Shown in pieces: positions 1,757-63,726 of a stretch of DNA of 64,000 nt. The stretch comes from an uncultured Methanosarcinales archaeon (GTDB lineage: Archaea; Nanobdellota; Nanobdellia; Woesearchaeales; JAGWAF01). The translations under genes were made by a program, and so were the position numbers. The first letter of the stretch is position 1; each line of letters begins with the position of its first letter. The notes beneath the pieces were generated by a model, which saw nothing but the letters and a program-made list of their open reading frames with translations, was not told the DNA's origin and made no database searches. The DNA lies in NCBI GenBank assembly GCA_964414985.1, contig CAYPXA010000007.1:12233-76232 (forward strand), written 5' to 3'.

Positions 1757-2455
1757 ATGAAATTTGAACTTGAATTAACCGAACCATTGCCAGATGCGGA
1801 AACCGACGAGATAGCAAGGATTTTGCTTGCAAGATTCGGGCTCCTGCCAAGGAAAAAGGACGGCCAGGCAAAGATGCACAGCCTCCTTCTTGAACTGTAT
1901 GAGCGCAAAAAAGCTGCAAACAGGGAAAAGAAGCCTGAAGCAGCAGTCATGACTGTCGAAGACATGGGCATTTTTGCAGGCATTAAGAGGCAGACAATGT
2001 ACGATTACTTGGGCAGATGGCTGTCCCTAAGCCTTCTCAAAAAAACATCGTTTGTAGCCAGCGGAAAGGTCGTAATCGGCTATGAGCTGAACGGCACAAA
2101 CCTTGAATCTGCATTCAAAAAGGCAGAAACAACGATAAGGAGCCATGTCGAGCAGAGCCTTGAGCTTGTGCGGATGCTCCAGAATGAGGTCAAAAAGGAA
2201 AAAATCAGGCAGAATATGCCTTCTGGAGAGCAGACCCCTGCTATTGGCGCAGCTGCTGCAGAATTGGCTGGAAGCGAAGAGCCTGTCGAGCCAGAACCAG
2301 AAGAGCCCAGCCCAGACCCATTAACTCCAGAGCCTGACGAGCCAGAACCCGATAAGCCTGGCCCAGATCCTCTTCAGCCTGACATTCCCCTGGAAGAGAA
2401 GAAAATTGCAGAATGCGCTGAAAAAAAGCAGGAAAATACAGAAAAAACTGAATAA
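1757..2455 (+). CDS. hypothetical protein with C-terminal Pro/Glu-rich low-complexity tail (PEPEEPSPDPLTPEPDEPEPDKPGPDP)
   Basis: 232-aa ORF whose N-terminal half is ordinary protein-like and whose C-terminus is a PE/PD repeat. Confidence 0.4.
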   Translation: MKFELELTEPLPDAETDEIARILLARFGLLPRKKDGQAKMHSLLLELYERKKAANREKKPEAAVMTVEDMGIFAGIKRQTMYDYLGRWLSLSLLKKTSFVASGKVVIGYELNGTNLESAFKKAETTIRSHVEQSLELVRMLQNEVKKEKIRQNMPSGEQTPAIGAAAAELAGSEEPVEPEPEEPSPDPLTPEPDEPEPDKPGPDPLQPDIPLEEKKIAECAEKKQENTEKTE

Positions 2456-3867: not shown

Positions 3868-3918
3868 AATCAGGACTATCCAAAAAATTCTGGTATAAAA
3901 ACCTTTCGATTCAAAAAA

Positions 3919-4091
3919 ATGGGAATGAATTAGGACATTCCCAGGAATAAAATGGGACTATTATGGGAATGAGAAAGCCTTTAAAGTCCTGAATTCATGA
4001 GTTATAGCCTTTTTTGTCATTCCCAATGGGAATGAAATGGGAACGTCCTGGGACTGTCCTGGGAATGAGATGGGAATGAAATGGGAATGAG
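3919..4091. promoter_or_regulatory. cluster of GGGAATG / CATTCCC dyad-symmetric sites (candidate operator array)
   Basis: Inverted repeat GGGAATG-N8-CATTCCC at 3921..3942 and palindrome CATTCCC-AAT-GGGAATG at 4018..4034. Five further ATGGGAATGA direct copies lie between 4038 and 4091. All sit immediately upstream of the minus-strand wHTH gene ending at 3867. Confidence 0.45.
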
Positions 4092-4099
4092 AAAAGTGC

Positions 4100-8160: not shown

Positions 8161-8255
8161 CATTGCCGCCCAGCGCAGTACTCGTTTTCTGACATTCTTC
8201 AAAAGGTGACTCCTGCAAATACGCGATTCAATAATCCTCACGAAGCGCGGCAATG
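8161..8255 (+). repeat. 95-bp inverted-repeat element copy A (subtype 1), MITE-like or sRNA-like
   Basis: cattgccgcccagcgcagtact...ttcttcaaaaggtgactcctg...ttcaataatcctcacgaagcgcggcaatg; the termini CATTGCCGC/GCGGCAATG are reverse complements. Confidence 0.8.
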
Positions 8256-8262
8256 ACCTAGG

Positions 8263-8357
8263 GATTGCCGCCAAGCGCAGTACTCTTTTTTTGAGTTTGA
8301 TTAGCACGTGACTCCTTTGAAGAAGCTGTTTAATATTCTGCACGAAGCGCGGCAATG
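8263..8357 (+). repeat. 95-bp inverted-repeat element copy B (subtype 2), tandem with copy A
   Basis: gattgccgccaagcgcagtact...gagtttgattagcacgtgactcctttgaagaagc...cacgaagcgcggcaatg. Confidence 0.8.
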
Positions 8358-37150: not shown

Positions 37151-37225
37151 ATGTTTTTTCTGCAAAATAATTAAATTAAAAAGATTGATCAATGCCCAGC
37201 TCCAAAACTCAATTTGGATTTAATG

Positions 37226-37319
37226 CATTGCCGCGCTCCGTGAAGATTATTGAACCGCTTCTTCAAAGGAGTCACGTGCAAATCAATGTCCAGAATAAGT
37301 ACTTCGCTGGGCGGCAATG
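37226..37319 (-). repeat. 95-bp inverted-repeat element copy C (subtype 2)
   Basis: cattgccgcgctccgtgaagattattgaaccgcttcttcaaaggagtcacgtgcaaatcaatgtccagaataagtacttcgctgggcggcaatg is the reverse complement of the subtype-2 consensus. Confidence 0.8.
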
Positions 37320-44066: not shown

Positions 44067-44160
44067 CATTGCCGCCAAGCGAAGTACTTGTTTTGGAGGT
44101 TCTTCAAAAGGTGACTCCTGTCAAGAAGCGGTTCAATAATCCTCACGGAGCGCGGCAATG
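44067..44160 (+). repeat. 95-bp inverted-repeat element copy D (subtype 1)
   Basis: cattgccgccaagcgaagtacttgttttggaggttcttcaaaaggtgactcctgtcaagaagcggttcaataatcctcacggagcgcggcaatg. Confidence 0.8.
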
Positions 44161-44260
44161 TTCAATCAGTAGTTCATTGAGTTTTGGCTTTAAGCAAAGC
44201 AATGCTTATGCACTGCTCCAAAACATAAGATTTTTAATTACAGGCTTTAATCTTTAGGCT

Positions 44261-53809: not shown

Positions 53810-53948
53810 GCGCTGATAGTCTAATGGCTATGAGTTCTTGATGTTGGCAGTTCAATATCAGAGCTAGCAAATACCGGCCTTCCATAATGGAAAGGAAGCT
53901 AACCATTGACGAGAGCCGATGGTCCGGGTTCGAATCCCGGTCAGCGCA
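53810..53948 (+). tRNA. unusually long (139-nt) tRNA gene with one or more introns; anticodon uncertain (UCC-Gly fold preferred, GUU-Asn possible)
   Basis: Acceptor GCGCTGA (53810-16) with TCAGCGC+A (53941-48). Canonical T arm CCGGG-TTCGAAT-CCCGG. Candidate anticodon arm CCGGC-CTTCCAT... with the intron TAATGGAAAGGAAG complementary to the exon CCTTCCA (BHB-like). About 38 extra nt lie between the D region and the anticodon stem. Confidence 0.4.
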
Positions 53949-54313: not shown

Positions 54314-54406
54314 TATTGCCGCGCTCCGTTACTATTATTGAACCGCTTCTGGTCAGGAGCCACCCTTTGAATAATCTCAAAAAACGAGTACTGCGCTTGG
54401 CGGCAA
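54314..54406 (-). repeat. 95-bp inverted-repeat element copy E (subtype 1, termini slightly eroded)
   Basis: atattgccgcgctccgttactattattgaaccgcttctggtcaggagccaccctttgaataatctcaaaaaacgagtactgcgcttggcggcaa. Confidence 0.7.
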
Positions 54407-54446
54407 CAAACCAAATCTTTTAATACCCAGAAACAGAATCAGGCAT

Positions 54447-56983: not shown

Positions 56984-58129
56984 ATGAGGAAAAAGCTGCT
57001 TATCTCAACAGACAGCTTCCTTCCCAGGTGGGATGGAGTTGCAAGATTCCTTTCTGAGATAATACCCCTTCTAAAAGAAAAGTATGACATAACAGTTGCA
57101 GCCCCTAAATTTGAGGGAAAAATACACAGGATTCCTGGCGCAAAAATAGTGAGGATACCTCTTTCAGGCGCAAAATACGGGGATTACCCTCCTGCAAAAT
57201 TCCAGTACCAGAAAATAAACCGCCTCGTCATGGAAAGCGACATAATCTTCAACCAGACATTAGGGCCTATCGGGTTTTTGGCGGCACTTTCAGCAAAAAG
57301 GCACAAAAAGCCGGTTGTTTCATACATCCATTCGATAGAGTGGGAGCTTTTCCCAAAGGCGGTAAAAAATTTCAGGCCGGTTGTAAAGGCTGCAGCTGCA
57401 ATTATGGCAAGGCATGCATACAACAGCTGCACAACAATTATTGTGCCTGCAGATGAGACTGAAGAAAAGATGAGGGCAAACAGGATAAGGACCAAGGCAG
57501 CTGCTGCACGGCTTGGGACAAACACAAAAAAGTTCAAGCCTGCGCCAAGCAAAGAAAAGGCAAAGACTGCAGCAGGCATAAGCCCAAAAACAAAAGTCAT
57601 AGGCTACTGCGGAAGGATTGCAAGGGAAAAAGGGATTCCAACGCTCCTCAAGGCATTCATAAAGGTAAACAAAGAAGACCCTGAAACAATGCTGCTTATA
57701 GTCGGAAGCGGAGTAAAGGATGTTGAAGATATGCTCCGTAAAAGCAAAAATGTGATTGTTACAGGCTCAACAGACAATGTGGTGCCCTACCTGCAGGCAA
57801 TGGATGTTTATGTGCTGCCCTCCCTGACAGAAACAACATCAATCTCAACGCTTGAGGCAATGTCCTGCGGCAATCCAGTCATTGTTACTCCTGTAGGATA
57901 TGCCCAAAAATACGTGAAGGAAGGCAGGAACGGAATGTTTTTCCCGAAAGGGAATGCTGATGCGCTTGCAAAAAAGATAAAGATTCTGCTGGGAAATGAA
58001 AAAATGAGAAAAGAGATGGGCGCAGAGGCAAGAAAGACTGTTGAAAAAGATTTTAGATGGGCAGATACTGCAAAAGCAATAATCCGAGTTCTTGACGCTG
58101 ATTTGAAGAATGCAAAGAAACAGAAGTAG
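56984..58129 (+). CDS. GT4-family glycosyltransferase (glycosyl transferase group 1)
   Basis: C-terminal GT1 domain (LPSLTETTSISTLEAMSCGNPVIVTPVGY...EGRNG). Start is 2 nt after the PIG-L stop. Confidence 0.7.
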   Translation: MRKKLLISTDSFLPRWDGVARFLSEIIPLLKEKYDITVAAPKFEGKIHRIPGAKIVRIPLSGAKYGDYPPAKFQYQKINRLVMESDIIFNQTLGPIGFLAALSAKRHKKPVVSYIHSIEWELFPKAVKNFRPVVKAAAAIMARHAYNSCTTIIVPADETEEKMRANRIRTKAAAARLGTNTKKFKPAPSKEKAKTAAGISPKTKVIGYCGRIAREKGIPTLLKAFIKVNKEDPETMLLIVGSGVKDVEDMLRKSKNVIVTGSTDNVVPYLQAMDVYVLPSLTETTSISTLEAMSCGNPVIVTPVGYAQKYVKEGRNGMFFPKGNADALAKKIKILLGNEKMRKEMGAEARKTVEKDFRWADTAKAIIRVLDADLKNAKKQK

Positions 58130-58158
58130 GATTTGGCGCCAGAACTCAATTCTTTTAA

Positions 58159-58253
58159 CATTGCCGCGCTTCGTGAAGATTATTGAACCGCTTCTTTGCA
58201 GGAGCCACCTTTTGAAGAATGCCAAACAAGAAGTACTCCGCTTGGAGGCAATG
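58159..58253 (-). repeat. 95-bp inverted-repeat element copy F (subtype 1)
   Basis: cattgccgcgcttcgtgaagattattgaaccgcttctttgcaggagccaccttttgaagaatgccaaacaagaagtactccgcttggaggcaatg. Confidence 0.8.
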
Positions 58254-58256
58254 CAG

Positions 58257-58351
58257 CATTGCCGCGCTTCGTGAGAATTATTGGACCGATTCCTCAAAGG
58301 AGTCACGTGTTAATCAAACTCAAACAAGAAGTACTGCGCTCGGCGGCAATG
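58257..58351 (-). repeat. 95-bp inverted-repeat element copy G (subtype 2), tandem with F
   Basis: cattgccgcgcttcgtgagaattattggaccgattcctcaaaggagtcacgtgttaatcaaactcaaacaagaagtactgcgctcggcggcaatg. Confidence 0.8.
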
Positions 58352-63100: not shown

Positions 63101-63644
63101 AAAGGAGTACAACAGCCTGCTTGAGAAGAAGGAAAGCCTGAAGAAGGAGAAGGATGACGTTGTTGGGCTTATTGCAGACATTGACGGCAGGAAAAAGGAC
63201 CTTTTCATGAATACTTATAATATTGTCTCAAAGAATTTCCAGGACATATTCTCATCGCTTTCCAAGAAGGGAGAGGCGCATCTCACTCTTGAAAACACTG
63301 AAAGCCCATTCGACGGAGGCCTTAATGTCAATGTCAAGCTTACAGGCAGCAAGTTCCTTGACATAAGGAGCCTTTCAGGAGGGGAAAAGACTCTTACAGC
63401 CCTCGCATTCATATTTGCAATACAGGAGCACGAGCCTGCATCATTCTACATACTTGACGAAGTTGACGCTGCGCTTGACAAGCACAACAGCGAGAAGCTT
63501 GCAAAGCTCATAAGGAAGTATTCAGACAGGGCGCAATACATCATAATCTCGCACAATGACTCAATAATATCTGAAGGCGACACGCTTTATGGAGTCAGCA
63601 TGGACGAGACAAGCACCAGCAATGTTGTCAGCCTCAAGATTTAG
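60153..63644 (+). CDS. smc: chromosome segregation protein SMC
   Basis: 1163 aa; Walker A (GPNGSGKSN), long coiled coils, a central hinge (GTVSELGEVNAKYSDALGVAAG), a C-terminal signature (LSGGEKTLTALAFIFAIQ) and Walker B (FYILDEVDAALD). Confidence 0.9.
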   Translation: MTKITKIVMNGFKSFGKKTEILFGDQFNVILGPNGSGKSNVLDALCFVLGKGSAKGLRVEKSSNLIYNGGKTKKPAKEGEVSIFFDNTKKIFPTEEESVKISRIIKPNGQSKYRINNKTRTKQQILDLLSLARIEPDGYNIILQGDIIRFVEMHPVEKRQMVEEIAGISVYEDKKQKALGELGKVDEKLGEAEIVLKERQTYLKELKKDRDQALKYKTLNDQIKQNKASYLKRQLDRKEDASSKFQEKIDRKKSKLDHYREQSSKLKEAIAKRKEEIKRISKEAEEKGEVEQVALQKEIEKLRIDLATSKTRISSCSNEIARIGQRRSQLSQNLSEIEEKISSLTAQKSDLEGRRSAIDEQREKLERTISEFKKKNKMGDDTDLSKELDELDRKADEKQSEVQKLREAQQELLREQDRLGVQIQMMDERIAKVLEVEKAHKAELDSLKQKKSEFKKATVELNELLNRDSELAAGIAEERQRLIKLTEDIARLEAKNISAKEKAAESIAVKKILENRSKFGGPVYGTVSELGEVNAKYSDALGVAAGRKINSIVVENDSVAAKCIKFLKDSKLGVASFLPLNKIKPEDEKKSLVKPGPGIHGTAISLIEFDPKFKSVFRYVFGDTLVVDSIEVARKVGIGTAKMVTLDGDLAEQSGAMIGGYRQKKAVSVFREKELSGDIEKVNAKISDSRSSLSSLEKQKQENEDKITSLREFKAGLEGDIIKVEKGLHLESGDLEASKAIKEQSQKRIAEVSKQIDDVMSNISEINRELASLKIAKQKLKDQFNDLRKPTLIAELNSFEEKKRQLTEELLKMESECKNIDMQVKEILGRDRDNTARILKDLDREEDAFSHESKDLEDIVSQKESVLKGMDAKQKEFQTRFKGLFESINQLNEKNSESEAELYKVDDLSRKEELEMNTLSLEQAKVRAELAGIKEDFAQYEGIELDMQKPEEQLKKEISDFEKMKENIGSVNMRALEIYESVEKEYNSLLEKKESLKKEKDDVVGLIADIDGRKKDLFMNTYNIVSKNFQDIFSSLSKKGEAHLTLENTESPFDGGLNVNVKLTGSKFLDIRSLSGGEKTLTALAFIFAIQEHEPASFYILDEVDAALDKHNSEKLAKLIRKYSDRAQYIIISHNDSIISEGDTLYGVSMDETSTSNVVSLKI

Positions 63645-63680
63645 TTCTGGTTTCTGCACGGAGCTCGATTCAAGTTCAGT

Positions 63681-63726
63681 CATTGCCGCCCAGCGCAGTA
63701 CGCATTCTCACGAAGCTCGAGCAATG
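63681..63726 (+). repeat. internally deleted (46-bp) copy H of the inverted-repeat element
   Basis: cattgccgcccagcgcagtac|gcattctcacgaagctcgagcaatg keeps both terminal arms and lacks the central roughly 50 bp. Confidence 0.65.

What the first reader, a model, noticed from the sequence alone, without database searches (positions are those of the whole stretch)
8161..8357. Two structural subtypes of the 95-bp element in which an internal segment is present in opposite orientations
Subtype 1 (copies A, D, E, F) has (A)TTCTTCAAAAGG upstream of the GTGACTCC/GTGGCTCC core; E carries GATTATTCAAAGGGTGGCTCC. Subtype 2 (copies B, C, G) lacks that upstream segment and carries its reverse complement, CCTTTGAAGAAGC, downstream of the core as CACGTGACTCCTTTGAAGAAGC. 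Both tandem pairs (A+B and F+G) combine one subtype-1 and one subtype-2 copy. A complementary segment on alternate sides of a conserved core points to a conserved hairpin, hence an RNA or DNA structure under selection, or to an invertible module. Plain neutral decay does not explain it.
Basis: seen in the sequence. Interest (0 to 1): 0.6.

Follow-up and report, generated by a model that had tools for sequence, protein, structure and literature searches.

The report
Two variants of a small archaeal repeat
The 95-base element is a previously undescribed small, non-coding, probably mobile repeat of a Woesearchaeota-like (DPANN) archaeon, and its two "subtypes" are one family that differs only in two short blocks beside a conserved core, one of which looks copied in reverse complement from the other side of the core rather than being a conserved hairpin or a DNA switch.

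Summary
The window holds seven full copies of a ~95-bp intergenic element with 9-bp complementary termini. Four copies (A, D, E, F) carry TTCTTCAAA(A)GG left of the core GTGRCTCC. Three (B, C, G) carry its reverse complement, CCTTTGARGAA, right of the core.

- **One family.** Outside 14 columns, identity between subtypes (84.5%) equals identity within them.
- **No conserved hairpin.** The proposed stem is absent in subtype 2 and weak in subtype 1. Arms pair better between copies than within them.
- **No inversion.** The core keeps its orientation.
- **Polarity.** Four copies from a second, syntenic but distant Woesearchaeota-like genome all resemble subtype 2, so the subtype-1 left arm is derived.

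Best reading: this is a MITE-like non-autonomous repeat family. It shows strain-level insertion polymorphism, empty orthologous sites, deletion derivatives, head-to-tail arrays and recombination between copies. No target-site duplication and no transposase were found. Subtype 1 most likely arose by a template-switch mutation that rewrote the left flank of the core as the complement of the right flank.

It is a new member of a known kind and of moderate interest.

The parts
8161..8255 (+). Copy A, subtype 1, full length (95 nt)
8195..8206 (+). Subtype-1 left arm TTCTTCAAAAGG in copy A; it overlaps the first G of the core
8206..8213 (+). Core GTGACTCC of copy A
8263..8357 (+). Copy B, subtype 2, head-to-tail with A across a 7-nt spacer
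8308..8315 (+). Core GTGACTCC of copy B
8314..8324 (+). Right arm CCTTTGAAGAA of copy B, the reverse complement of the subtype-1 left arm
37226..37319 (-). Copy C, subtype 2, between the convergent UPF0147 and MscS-like genes
44067..44160 (+). Copy D, subtype 1, upstream of the alanyl-tRNA synthetase gene
54314..54408 (-). Copy E, subtype 1, with diverged termini (TG...TA) that stay complementary at position 1
58159..58253 (-). Copy F, subtype 1
58257..58351 (-). Copy G, subtype 2, head-to-tail with F across a 3-nt spacer (G precedes F in element orientation)
58102..58128 (-). Fragment F': left-half piece of a subtype-1 copy (TACTTCTGTTTCTTTGCATTCTTCAAA) 30 nt beyond F. It encodes the last codons of the glycosyltransferase gene 56984-58129
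   Evidence: (no shuffle of 100 scored as high)
63681..63726 (+). Copy H, a 46-nt internally deleted derivative: left 21 nt plus right ~21 nt, with no centre
63652..63667 (+). Right-end fragment TTCTGCACGGAGCTCG just upstream of H. It shares H's derived AGCTCGA
   Evidence: (p about 0.02)

Best explanation
The element belongs to a lineage-restricted family of small, non-coding, non-autonomous repeats in Woesearchaeota-like DPANN archaea.

Anatomy. Two conserved ends of about 20 nt (CATTGCCRCC.AGCG.AGTACT ... CACGRAGCG.GGCAATG) have complementary outer 9 nt. They enclose a fast-evolving interior built around one conserved motif, GTGRCTCC.

Inferred mechanism. Copies are, or were, moved in trans by an enzyme that recognises the ends. 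They land in intergenic DNA, very often directly beside an existing copy in the same orientation. Arrays then decay by deletion between the AGCG repeats present at both ends, and copies exchange sequence by recombination around the core.

The two subtypes. They are one family and differ only in an 11-column block left of the core and a 3-column block right of it. The subtype-2 arrangement (..RCACG-TGACTCC-TTTGAAGAAG) is the older one. Subtype 1 most likely arose when a replication template switch within the weak quasi-palindrome around the core overwrote about 10 nt left of the loop TGACT with the complement of the sequence right of it. That made a near-perfect 11-12-bp hairpin, which was later broken again in every surviving subtype-1 copy by changes in the middle of its right arm.

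Shown: the family, the anatomy, the polymorphism, the polarity, and the lack of a within-copy stem. Inferred: the transposition enzyme, the template switch, and the selection against a perfect hairpin.
For: Family and mobility:
- The window holds 7 full copies, one 46-nt deletion derivative and fragments at 6 intergenic loci.
- Public short-read contigs from three samples break inside the copies.
- Relatives with 71-74% identical AlaRS have spacers of 0-70 nt and no element where the window has copies C and D.
- A second genome is syntenic with window 15-31 kb (proteins 36-77% identical). It carries the family at different intergenic sites, and the window has no copy at those sites.
- Two 99%-identical strains of that genome differ by a whole extra copy at one locus (L056 versus L057). 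Relatives with 65% and 75% identical NurA have spacers of 59 and 86 nt there.
- The ends are nearly identical between the two genomes although the interiors differ.
- The terminal stem is 95% paired, with 2 double compensatory changes; 9 of 500 shuffles reach that.

Non-coding and uncatalogued:
- No Rfam match and no protein relatives for the open frame.

Subtypes:
- Identity outside the blocks is 84.5% between subtypes and 84.1% / 82.7% within them. Inside the blocks it is 25% between and 79-89% within.
- Diagnostic columns are clustered (P = 0.0005).
- The six columns of the left block in which subtype 1 differs from subtype 2 (five fully diagnostic, one nearly so) all become complementary to the mirrored subtype-2-type right arm, directly abutting the loop. 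The chimera of a subtype-1 left arm and a subtype-2 right arm folds at -13.4 kcal/mol.
- All four copies of the second genome have the ..CGT-GACTC-TTTGAAGAAG arrangement and none has the subtype-1 arm.

Precedent:
- Template switching is an established source of clustered substitutions that create hairpins (PMC5453318, PMC8794818, PMC7202029).
Against: - No target-site duplication was found at any copy.
- No transposase or recombinase was found among the 29 window proteins scanned, and no longer element with the same ends exists in the window. Mobility therefore rests on comparison, not on a known mechanism.
- Only 7 + 4 full or near-full copies could be obtained, because both large DNA scans returned a single true relative.
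- One template switch does not explain the second block. Subtype-1 right arms read TGCAAA, TGTCAA or TGACCA instead of TTTGAA. In A and F that block resembles the reverse complement of the left flank of copy C (TTTGCA), which hints at a reciprocal swap that a single event cannot make.
- Subtype 1 shares TTCTT with second-genome copy g2-3, so the templated tract may be only about 6 nt, which weakens the statistics.
- Polarity rests on one outgroup genome.
Confidence: 0.6

Rival explanations
1. Ancestral hairpin with differential decay. The founder element had both perfect arms (TTCTTCAAAGG-TGACT-CCTTTGAAGAA). Subtype 1 kept the left arm and lost the right; subtype 2 kept the right and lost the left. 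The blocks may have been imported by gene conversion from unsampled diverged copies.
For: Recombination between copies with a breakpoint at the core is directly seen: L056 and L057 have 99% identical flanks but an element right half that differs by about 30%. Polymorphisms outside the blocks group copies across subtypes. Weak hairpins with the core at the apex exist in subtype 1 and in second-genome copies. TTCTT/AAGAA is shared by subtype 1 and g2-3.
Against: None of 11 copies has both good arms. All four copies of the second genome have a subtype-2-like left flank (..CGTG), so the subtype-1 arm looks derived, not ancestral. Replacing 7 of 9 adjacent bases in subtype 2 would still need a complex event.
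Confidence: 0.2
2. Functional RNA or single-stranded DNA structure. The elements are transcribed, and the complementary 12-nt arms of subtype 1 and subtype 2 pair with each other, in cis within head-to-tail arrays or in trans, as a two-part structure with a regulatory or processing role.
For: A subtype-1 left arm pairs with a subtype-2 right arm at about -10 kcal/mol, far better than any arm pairs within its own copy. The predicted fold of the A+B pair uses this inter-element helix on both strands. Both full tandem pairs combine the two subtypes. The terminal stem shows 2 compensatory changes. Copy G's A-to-G change keeps a G-U pair with F's arm.
Against: Fold z-scores for the pairs are only -1.3 to -2.3. 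The G+F pair does not use the helix in its predicted fold. Copy orientation relative to neighbouring genes is inconsistent: E is antisense while A, B and D are sense. Heterotypic pairing is expected by chance with P = 0.34. C, D and E have no full partner. The second genome forms tandem arrays without any subtype-1 copy. There is no Rfam match and no covariation in the interior.
Confidence: 0.12
3. Invertible module or flip-flop. The central segment is physically inverted between copies, either by a site-specific recombinase or by hairpin-primed replication as in parvovirus termini.
For: Both flanks of the core in A and F look like reverse complements of the opposite flanks in C (TTCAAA/TTTGAA and TGCAAA/TTTGCA).
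Against: The core is not inverted. GGTGACTCC (subtype 1) matches CGTGACTCC (subtype 2) at 8 of 9 positions and matches its reverse complement at only 5 of 9. TGCA is self-complementary, so the second relation is weak, and it is present in only 2 of 4 subtype-1 copies and 1 of 3 subtype-2 copies. No inverted repeats bracket the segment. No recombinase was found among the scanned proteins. Subtype-2 block states are shared by descent among B, C and G, so they were not regenerated by flipping a neighbour.
Confidence: 0.05
4. Two unrelated sequence families that share only their termini.
For: None beyond the different blocks.
Against: The alignment is colinear over all 95 nt. Outside 14 columns, identity between subtypes (84.5%) equals identity within them.
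Confidence: 0.01

Closest known systems
Prokaryotic MITEs and other small intergenic repeats (Correia/CREE of Neisseria, ERIC/IRU and RU-1/2/3 of enterobacteria, RUP of pneumococcus, Sulfolobus SM MITEs); comparison from general knowledge and the review PMC3184786
   Same: About 100 bp, terminal inverted repeats, many dispersed intergenic copies, no coding capacity of their own, internal-deletion derivatives, subfamilies, insertion polymorphism between strains, occasional contribution of codons to neighbouring genes, and a cause of assembly breaks.
   Different: No sequence similarity to any of them and a different host lineage (DPANN archaea). No target-site duplication is detectable. The inverted termini are only 9 bp. 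There is a strong tendency to head-to-tail arrays with 2-8-nt spacers. No partner transposase has been identified.
IS200/IS605-derived palindrome-associated elements and REP/REPIN-RAYT systems (from general knowledge)
   Same: Insertion without target duplication, dependence on conserved structured ends, and non-autonomous spread in trans.
   Different: Those elements have subterminal hairpins rather than complementary termini. REPINs are inverted doublets, not head-to-tail arrays. No conserved target tetranucleotide is visible at the left flanks. No Y1/HUH transposase was seen in the proteins scanned.
Template-switch (quasi-palindrome) mutations that create or perfect hairpins (PMC5453318, PMC8794818, PMC7202029)
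   Same: A cluster of adjacent substitutions whose new sequence is the reverse complement of sequence a few bases away, placed symmetrically about a loop and producing a hairpin arm.
   Different: Here the event is inferred in a founder copy of a repeat family and then amplified. The resulting hairpin was not kept. A second small block is left unexplained.
Flip/flop hairpin termini of parvoviruses and invertible DNA switches (from general knowledge)
   Same: Two forms that differ by reverse-complemented internal sequence within a palindromic context.
   Different: In those systems the whole asymmetric interior, including the loop, inverts, and both forms interconvert at one locus. Here the core keeps its orientation and the forms are separate lineages at separate loci.

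Membership tests
MITE (miniature inverted-repeat transposable element) | Small size (under about 600 bp) and no coding capacity | tested here: met
   94-95 nt. One frame is open but has no start codon and no relatives in two protein searches.
MITE (miniature inverted-repeat transposable element) | Terminal inverted repeats | tested here: met
   CATTGCCGC / GCGGCAATG, 9 bp, 95% complementary across 11 copies, with 2 compensatory double changes.
MITE (miniature inverted-repeat transposable element) | Target-site duplication flanking each copy | tested here: not met
   No direct repeat at the boundaries of any of 8 window copies. The 10-nt repeat ACTGCCAAGT near the L056 copy is offset by 10 nt and looks like a remnant of a neighbouring copy.
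MITE (miniature inverted-repeat transposable element) | Multiple dispersed copies with presence/absence polymorphism | tested here: met
   Six loci in 64 kb. Orthologous sites are empty in relatives. Strains L056 and L057 differ by one copy. The two syntenic genomes carry copies at different sites.
MITE (miniature inverted-repeat transposable element) | Autonomous partner element with matching termini | tested here: inconclusive
   No further terminus matches in the window and no transposase among 29 proteins scanned. The rest of the genome was not available.
REP / REPIN-RAYT | A 20-40-nt imperfect palindrome unit, doublets in inverted orientation, and an associated RAYT gene | tested here: not met
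   The unit is 95 nt with only 9-bp complementary ends. All pairs are head-to-tail. No RAYT-like protein was seen in the window proteins scanned.
Structured RNA family (Rfam or a new one) | Match to a curated model, or a conserved secondary structure with covariation | tested here: not met
   No Rfam hit at the gathering threshold, and only one chance-level hit at E = 1.9. Consensus folds keep only the terminal stem. The central stem shows no compensatory change and pairs less well than shuffled controls.
Invertible DNA switch / flip-flop hairpin | Clean reverse complement of the whole segment between flanking inverted repeats, with both states at one locus | tested here: not met
   The core keeps its orientation (8 of 9 matches direct, 5 of 9 inverted). 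There are no bracketing repeats, and the states are fixed at different loci.
Template-switch (quasi-palindrome) mutation product | Clustered substitutions equal to the reverse complement of a nearby tract, with polarity supported by an outgroup | tested here: met
   The left block (columns 37-47) becomes complementary to the mirrored right arm at all six columns where subtype 1 differs. Diagnostic columns are clustered (P = 0.0005). Four outgroup copies lack the derived arm. A formal pair-HMM test was not run.

The most novel reading that the evidence does not exclude
Subtypes 1 and 2 may be a co-adapted complementary pair. Each copy avoids pairing with itself, but the subtype-1 left arm pairs with the subtype-2 right arm (12 nt, about -10 kcal/mol). 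Neighbouring copies in head-to-tail arrays, or copies in trans, would then form a two-part RNA or single-stranded DNA structure. That structure could direct array formation, copy-to-copy recombination, or processing of read-through transcripts. The pattern of arms pairing better between copies than within them would then result from selection and not from history.
Probability: 0.07. Interest if true: 0.7.

Novelty: new member of a known kind. Interest (0 to 1): 0.35.

Why it matters
DPANN archaea have tiny genomes that are usually thought poor in mobile DNA. This repeat makes up roughly 1% of the window, breaks short-read assemblies, differs between 99%-identical strains and supplies the last codons of a gene. 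It is therefore a practical marker for strain typing and assembly quality, and a lead to an unidentified mobilising enzyme that leaves no target duplication.

The two-subtype pattern is also a compact natural example of how a templated replication error can create a hairpin arm in one step, and of that arm then being amplified as a sub-family.

None of this overturns current ideas.

Tried and rejected
- **Genome collection scan** for the two conserved ends: 12 stretches, only L012 a true relative, the rest chance.
- **Metagenome scan** with the same pattern: 12 stretches, all chance.
- **Viral contig scan**: 23 stretches, all chance.
- **Spurious ORF search.** I tried to find more copies through ORFs called across the element. 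An alignment of the open minus-strand frame against 5.8 billion proteins gave no hit at E <= 10. The 65-residue B+A translation against 1.84 billion representatives gave no hit.
- **Rfam**, at the gathering threshold and at E <= 10: nothing.
- **Sensitive profile search for decayed copies** in the window: nothing beyond copy H. Decayed neighbours of C and D remain visual impressions only.
- **Look-ups of window proteins** returned only short Logan contigs that break inside the elements. They added about 6.5 kb of new genome sequence and no new full copy.
- **Target duplication and left-flank target motif**: none found.
- **Similarity between the UppS C-terminal coding region and the right half of the element** (p about 0.04 over 12 tests): dismissed as chance.
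- **Core as a ribosome-binding site.** AGGAG on the minus strand is about 90 nt from the nearest start codon and ATG spacing is not conserved, so I rejected this on reading the sequence.
- **Splicing-type bulge-helix-bulge at the terminal stem.** The geometry does not fit; rejected on reading the sequence.

Full report
**What is there.** The region 8161-8357 holds two head-to-tail copies, A and B, of a roughly 95-nt element. The window contains exactly seven full copies. A pattern made of the two conserved ends finds these seven and nothing else, against 0 expected. A profile search adds an eighth, copy H (63681-63726). H is a 46-nt derivative that joins the left 21 nt to the right ~21 nt and lacks the centre. 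All copies are intergenic. A+B lie between the undecaprenyl-diphosphate synthase gene and a transglutaminase-like gene. C lies between convergent genes. D lies upstream of the alanyl-tRNA synthetase gene. E lies between a thioredoxin-like gene and a dihydrouridine synthase gene. G+F lie between convergent genes. H lies after the SMC gene. The host is an archaeon: it has a tRNA with a long intron. It belongs to the Woesearchaeota/Nanoarchaeota part of DPANN, since the best AlaRS relatives (74% identity at most) carry those names.

**Checking the observation.** In element orientation, A, D, E and F read TT(C/A)TTCAAA(A/G)GG-TG(A/G)CTCC-TG... B, C and G read TTGATT(A/T)(G/A)CACG-TGACTCC-TTTGA(A/G)GAA. 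Seven of the eight window matches to TTCTTCAAAGG (at most one mismatch) lie in the elements, on the element strand in the first group and on the opposite strand in the second. The seven columns where the two groups share no base (37, 40, 42, 45, 47, 57, 59 of alignment A4) all fall within 23 columns, which has P = 0.0005 under random placement.

**One family, not two.** Outside the two blocks (columns 37-47 and 57-59), identity between subtypes is 84.5%. Within subtypes it is 84.1% and 82.7%. Inside the blocks the figures are 25% between and 79-89% within.

**No conserved hairpin.**
Within copies it is 61% paired, no pair shows a compensatory change, and all 500 shuffles that swap right arms among copies pair better.
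- Duplex energies agree. A subtype-1 left arm with a subtype-2 right arm gives about -10 kcal/mol. Subtype-1 arms with their own right arms give -2 to -5, and subtype-2 arms about 0.
- Single-copy folds and consensus folds on either strand agree only on the 9-bp terminal stem.
- Folds of the two tandem pairs have weak z-scores (-1.3 to -2.3). Only the A+B pair uses the inter-copy helix.
- Rfam has no match.

**No inversion.** The core is GGTGACTCC or GGTGGCTCC in subtype 1 and CGTGACTCC in subtype 2. That is 8 of 9 matches read directly and 5 of 9 read as the reverse complement. A true inversion or a parvovirus-style flip/flop would invert the core too. Nothing brackets the segment as inverted repeats. 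The states sit at different loci, and B, C and G share their block states by descent. In A and F the right block (TGCAAA) does resemble the reverse complement of C's left flank (TTTGCA). However, TGCA is its own complement, and D, E, B and G do not show the relation, so I treat it as weak.

**More copies, polarity and mobility.**
- *Searches.* The two large DNA scans gave only one true relative, L012, on a contig labelled Methanosarcinales. Its NurA protein groups with Woesearchaeota. The contig is syntenic with window 15-31 kb, with proteins 36-77% identical.
- *Second-genome copies.* The full contig (L056) and a strain with 99% identical flanks (L057) gave four copies. These are a 96-nt copy, a further 96-nt copy present only in L057, and two copies of a 129-nt form. 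In the 129-nt form the right end of one copy is fused through the shared AGCGC to a short second copy.
- *Polarity.* All four have ..CGT-GACTC(C/A)-T(T/A)T(T/G)(A/T)AGAAG. None has the subtype-1 arm. The subtype-2 arrangement is therefore older, and the subtype-1 left arm is derived.
- *Mobility.* The two syntenic genomes carry copies at different sites. The two strains differ by one whole copy. Relatives have spacers of 59 and 86 nt at that locus. Relatives of the window genome have spacers of 0-70 nt at the sites of C and D.
- *Constraint on the ends.* The ends are nearly identical between two genomes whose proteins are only 36-77% identical. The terminal stem also keeps complementarity through two double changes, at E position 1 and g2-3 position 8; 9 of 500 shuffles reach that.
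- *What is missing.* No target duplication is visible. No transposase was found among the 29 window proteins scanned, and no further terminus matches exist in the window.

**Arrays and recombination.** Copies cluster head-to-tail with spacers of 3-7 nt: A+B, G+F, and g2-3+g2-2. Next to F lies a significant left-half fragment of the subtype-1 type, and next to H a right-end fragment. L056 and L057 have 99% identical flanks and nearly identical element left halves, but the right halves differ by about 30%, with the change starting at the core. That can only be sequence exchange between copies. In the window, polymorphisms outside the blocks group (F,G), (A,B,E) and (C,D), each group mixing subtypes. 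This fits exchange between copies as well. It also means that neighbours resemble each other outside the blocks.

**How the subtypes most likely arose.** Compared with the older arrangement, the six columns that changed in the left block of subtype 1 (37, 40, 42, 44, 45, 47) all became complementary to the mirrored positions of the older right arm CCTTTGAAGAA. The new tract abuts the loop TGACT. The chimera of a subtype-1 left arm and a subtype-2 right arm folds at -13.4 kcal/mol. This is the signature of a replication template switch within a quasi-palindrome, a known source of clustered substitutions that create hairpin arms (PMC5453318, PMC8794818, PMC7202029).

Every surviving subtype-1 copy then carries a different disruption in the middle of its right arm (GCA, GTC, GAC, GCA). 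I read this, as inference only, as loss of a hairpin that was harmful or unstable. The weak points are stated plainly:
- The second block is not explained by one event.
- Subtype 1 shares TTCTT with copy g2-3, so the templated tract may be as short as six bases.
- Polarity rests on one other genome.

**Comparison with known systems.** In size, ends, distribution, deletion derivatives and strain polymorphism the element behaves like bacterial and archaeal MITEs and related small repeats (PMC3184786). It fails the target-duplication criterion, and a partner transposase could not be tested beyond the window. I therefore call it MITE-like and not a proven MITE. It is not a REP/REPIN, not a member of any Rfam family, and not an invertible switch (see the membership table).

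**Verdict.** The finding is a new, lineage-restricted member of a known kind of element, with a neat but unproven templated-mutation origin for one sub-family. The most novel reading still open is that the two subtypes are a complementary pair that function together. I give it about 7%.

Noticed in passing
window 63681-63726 and 63652-63667: A 46-nt internally deleted copy (H) lies after the SMC gene, preceded by a right-end fragment that shares H's derived AGCTCGA. Short-read contigs assemble straight through H although they break at full copies.
   Followed up: yes
window 58102-58128 (-), inside gene 56984-58129: A left-half fragment of a subtype-1 copy encodes the last residues (LKNAKKQK) of the glycosyltransferase, immediately before its stop codon. 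It uses the same frame that is open in all full copies (compare LLKNAKQE in copy F).
   Followed up: partly
window 37202-37213 (-), 44176-44187 (+), 58139-58150 (-), 63639-63650 (+): The 12-mer ATTGAGTTYTGG has only three exact matches in the window. All three lie 7-15 nt beyond the right end of copies C, D and F, and a one-mismatch version lies left of H. It resembles the element's own region TACTTGTTTTGGAG, so it may be a remnant of decayed neighbouring copies or a target motif. Profile and local-alignment searches did not confirm decayed copies next to C and D.
   Followed up: partly
L056 14336-14426 and L057 3824-3953: A 129-nt long form in the second genome looks like two tandem copies fused by deletion between the AGCGC of a right end and the AGCGC of the next left end.
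   Followed up: partly
L056 4745-5020 versus L057 3790-4170: Two strains with 99% identical flanks differ by one whole extra copy. The right half of the shared copy also differs by about 30%, with the breakpoint at the core motif. This is evidence for recombination between copies.
   Followed up: yes
L012 / L056 (CAZLVM010000002.1): The contig is deposited as an uncultured Methanosarcinales MAG. It is syntenic with this Woesearchaeota-like window, and its NurA matches Woesearchaeota/Nanoarchaeota proteins, so the contig is probably misbinned or mislabelled.
   Followed up: partly
window 53810-53948 (+): Rfam finds a tRNA of 139 nt, implying a long intron, that ARAGORN does not report.
   Followed up: no
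window 3917-4094: A cluster of short direct repeats of the type AAATGGGAATGA / CCTGGGA lies in an intergenic stretch (repeat family D4). It is unrelated to the 95-nt element.
   Followed up: no
window 2278-2370: A 42-nt direct repeat with 51-nt spacing lies inside ORF 1757-2455 (family D5). It probably encodes a repeated Pro/Glu-rich peptide, and the protein has no Pfam match.
   Followed up: no
L025 end, L052 start: Logan short-read contigs from SRR14492170/172/173 stop inside element copies: 20 nt into A, and at the core of G. The family therefore fragments assemblies of this organism.
   Followed up: yes
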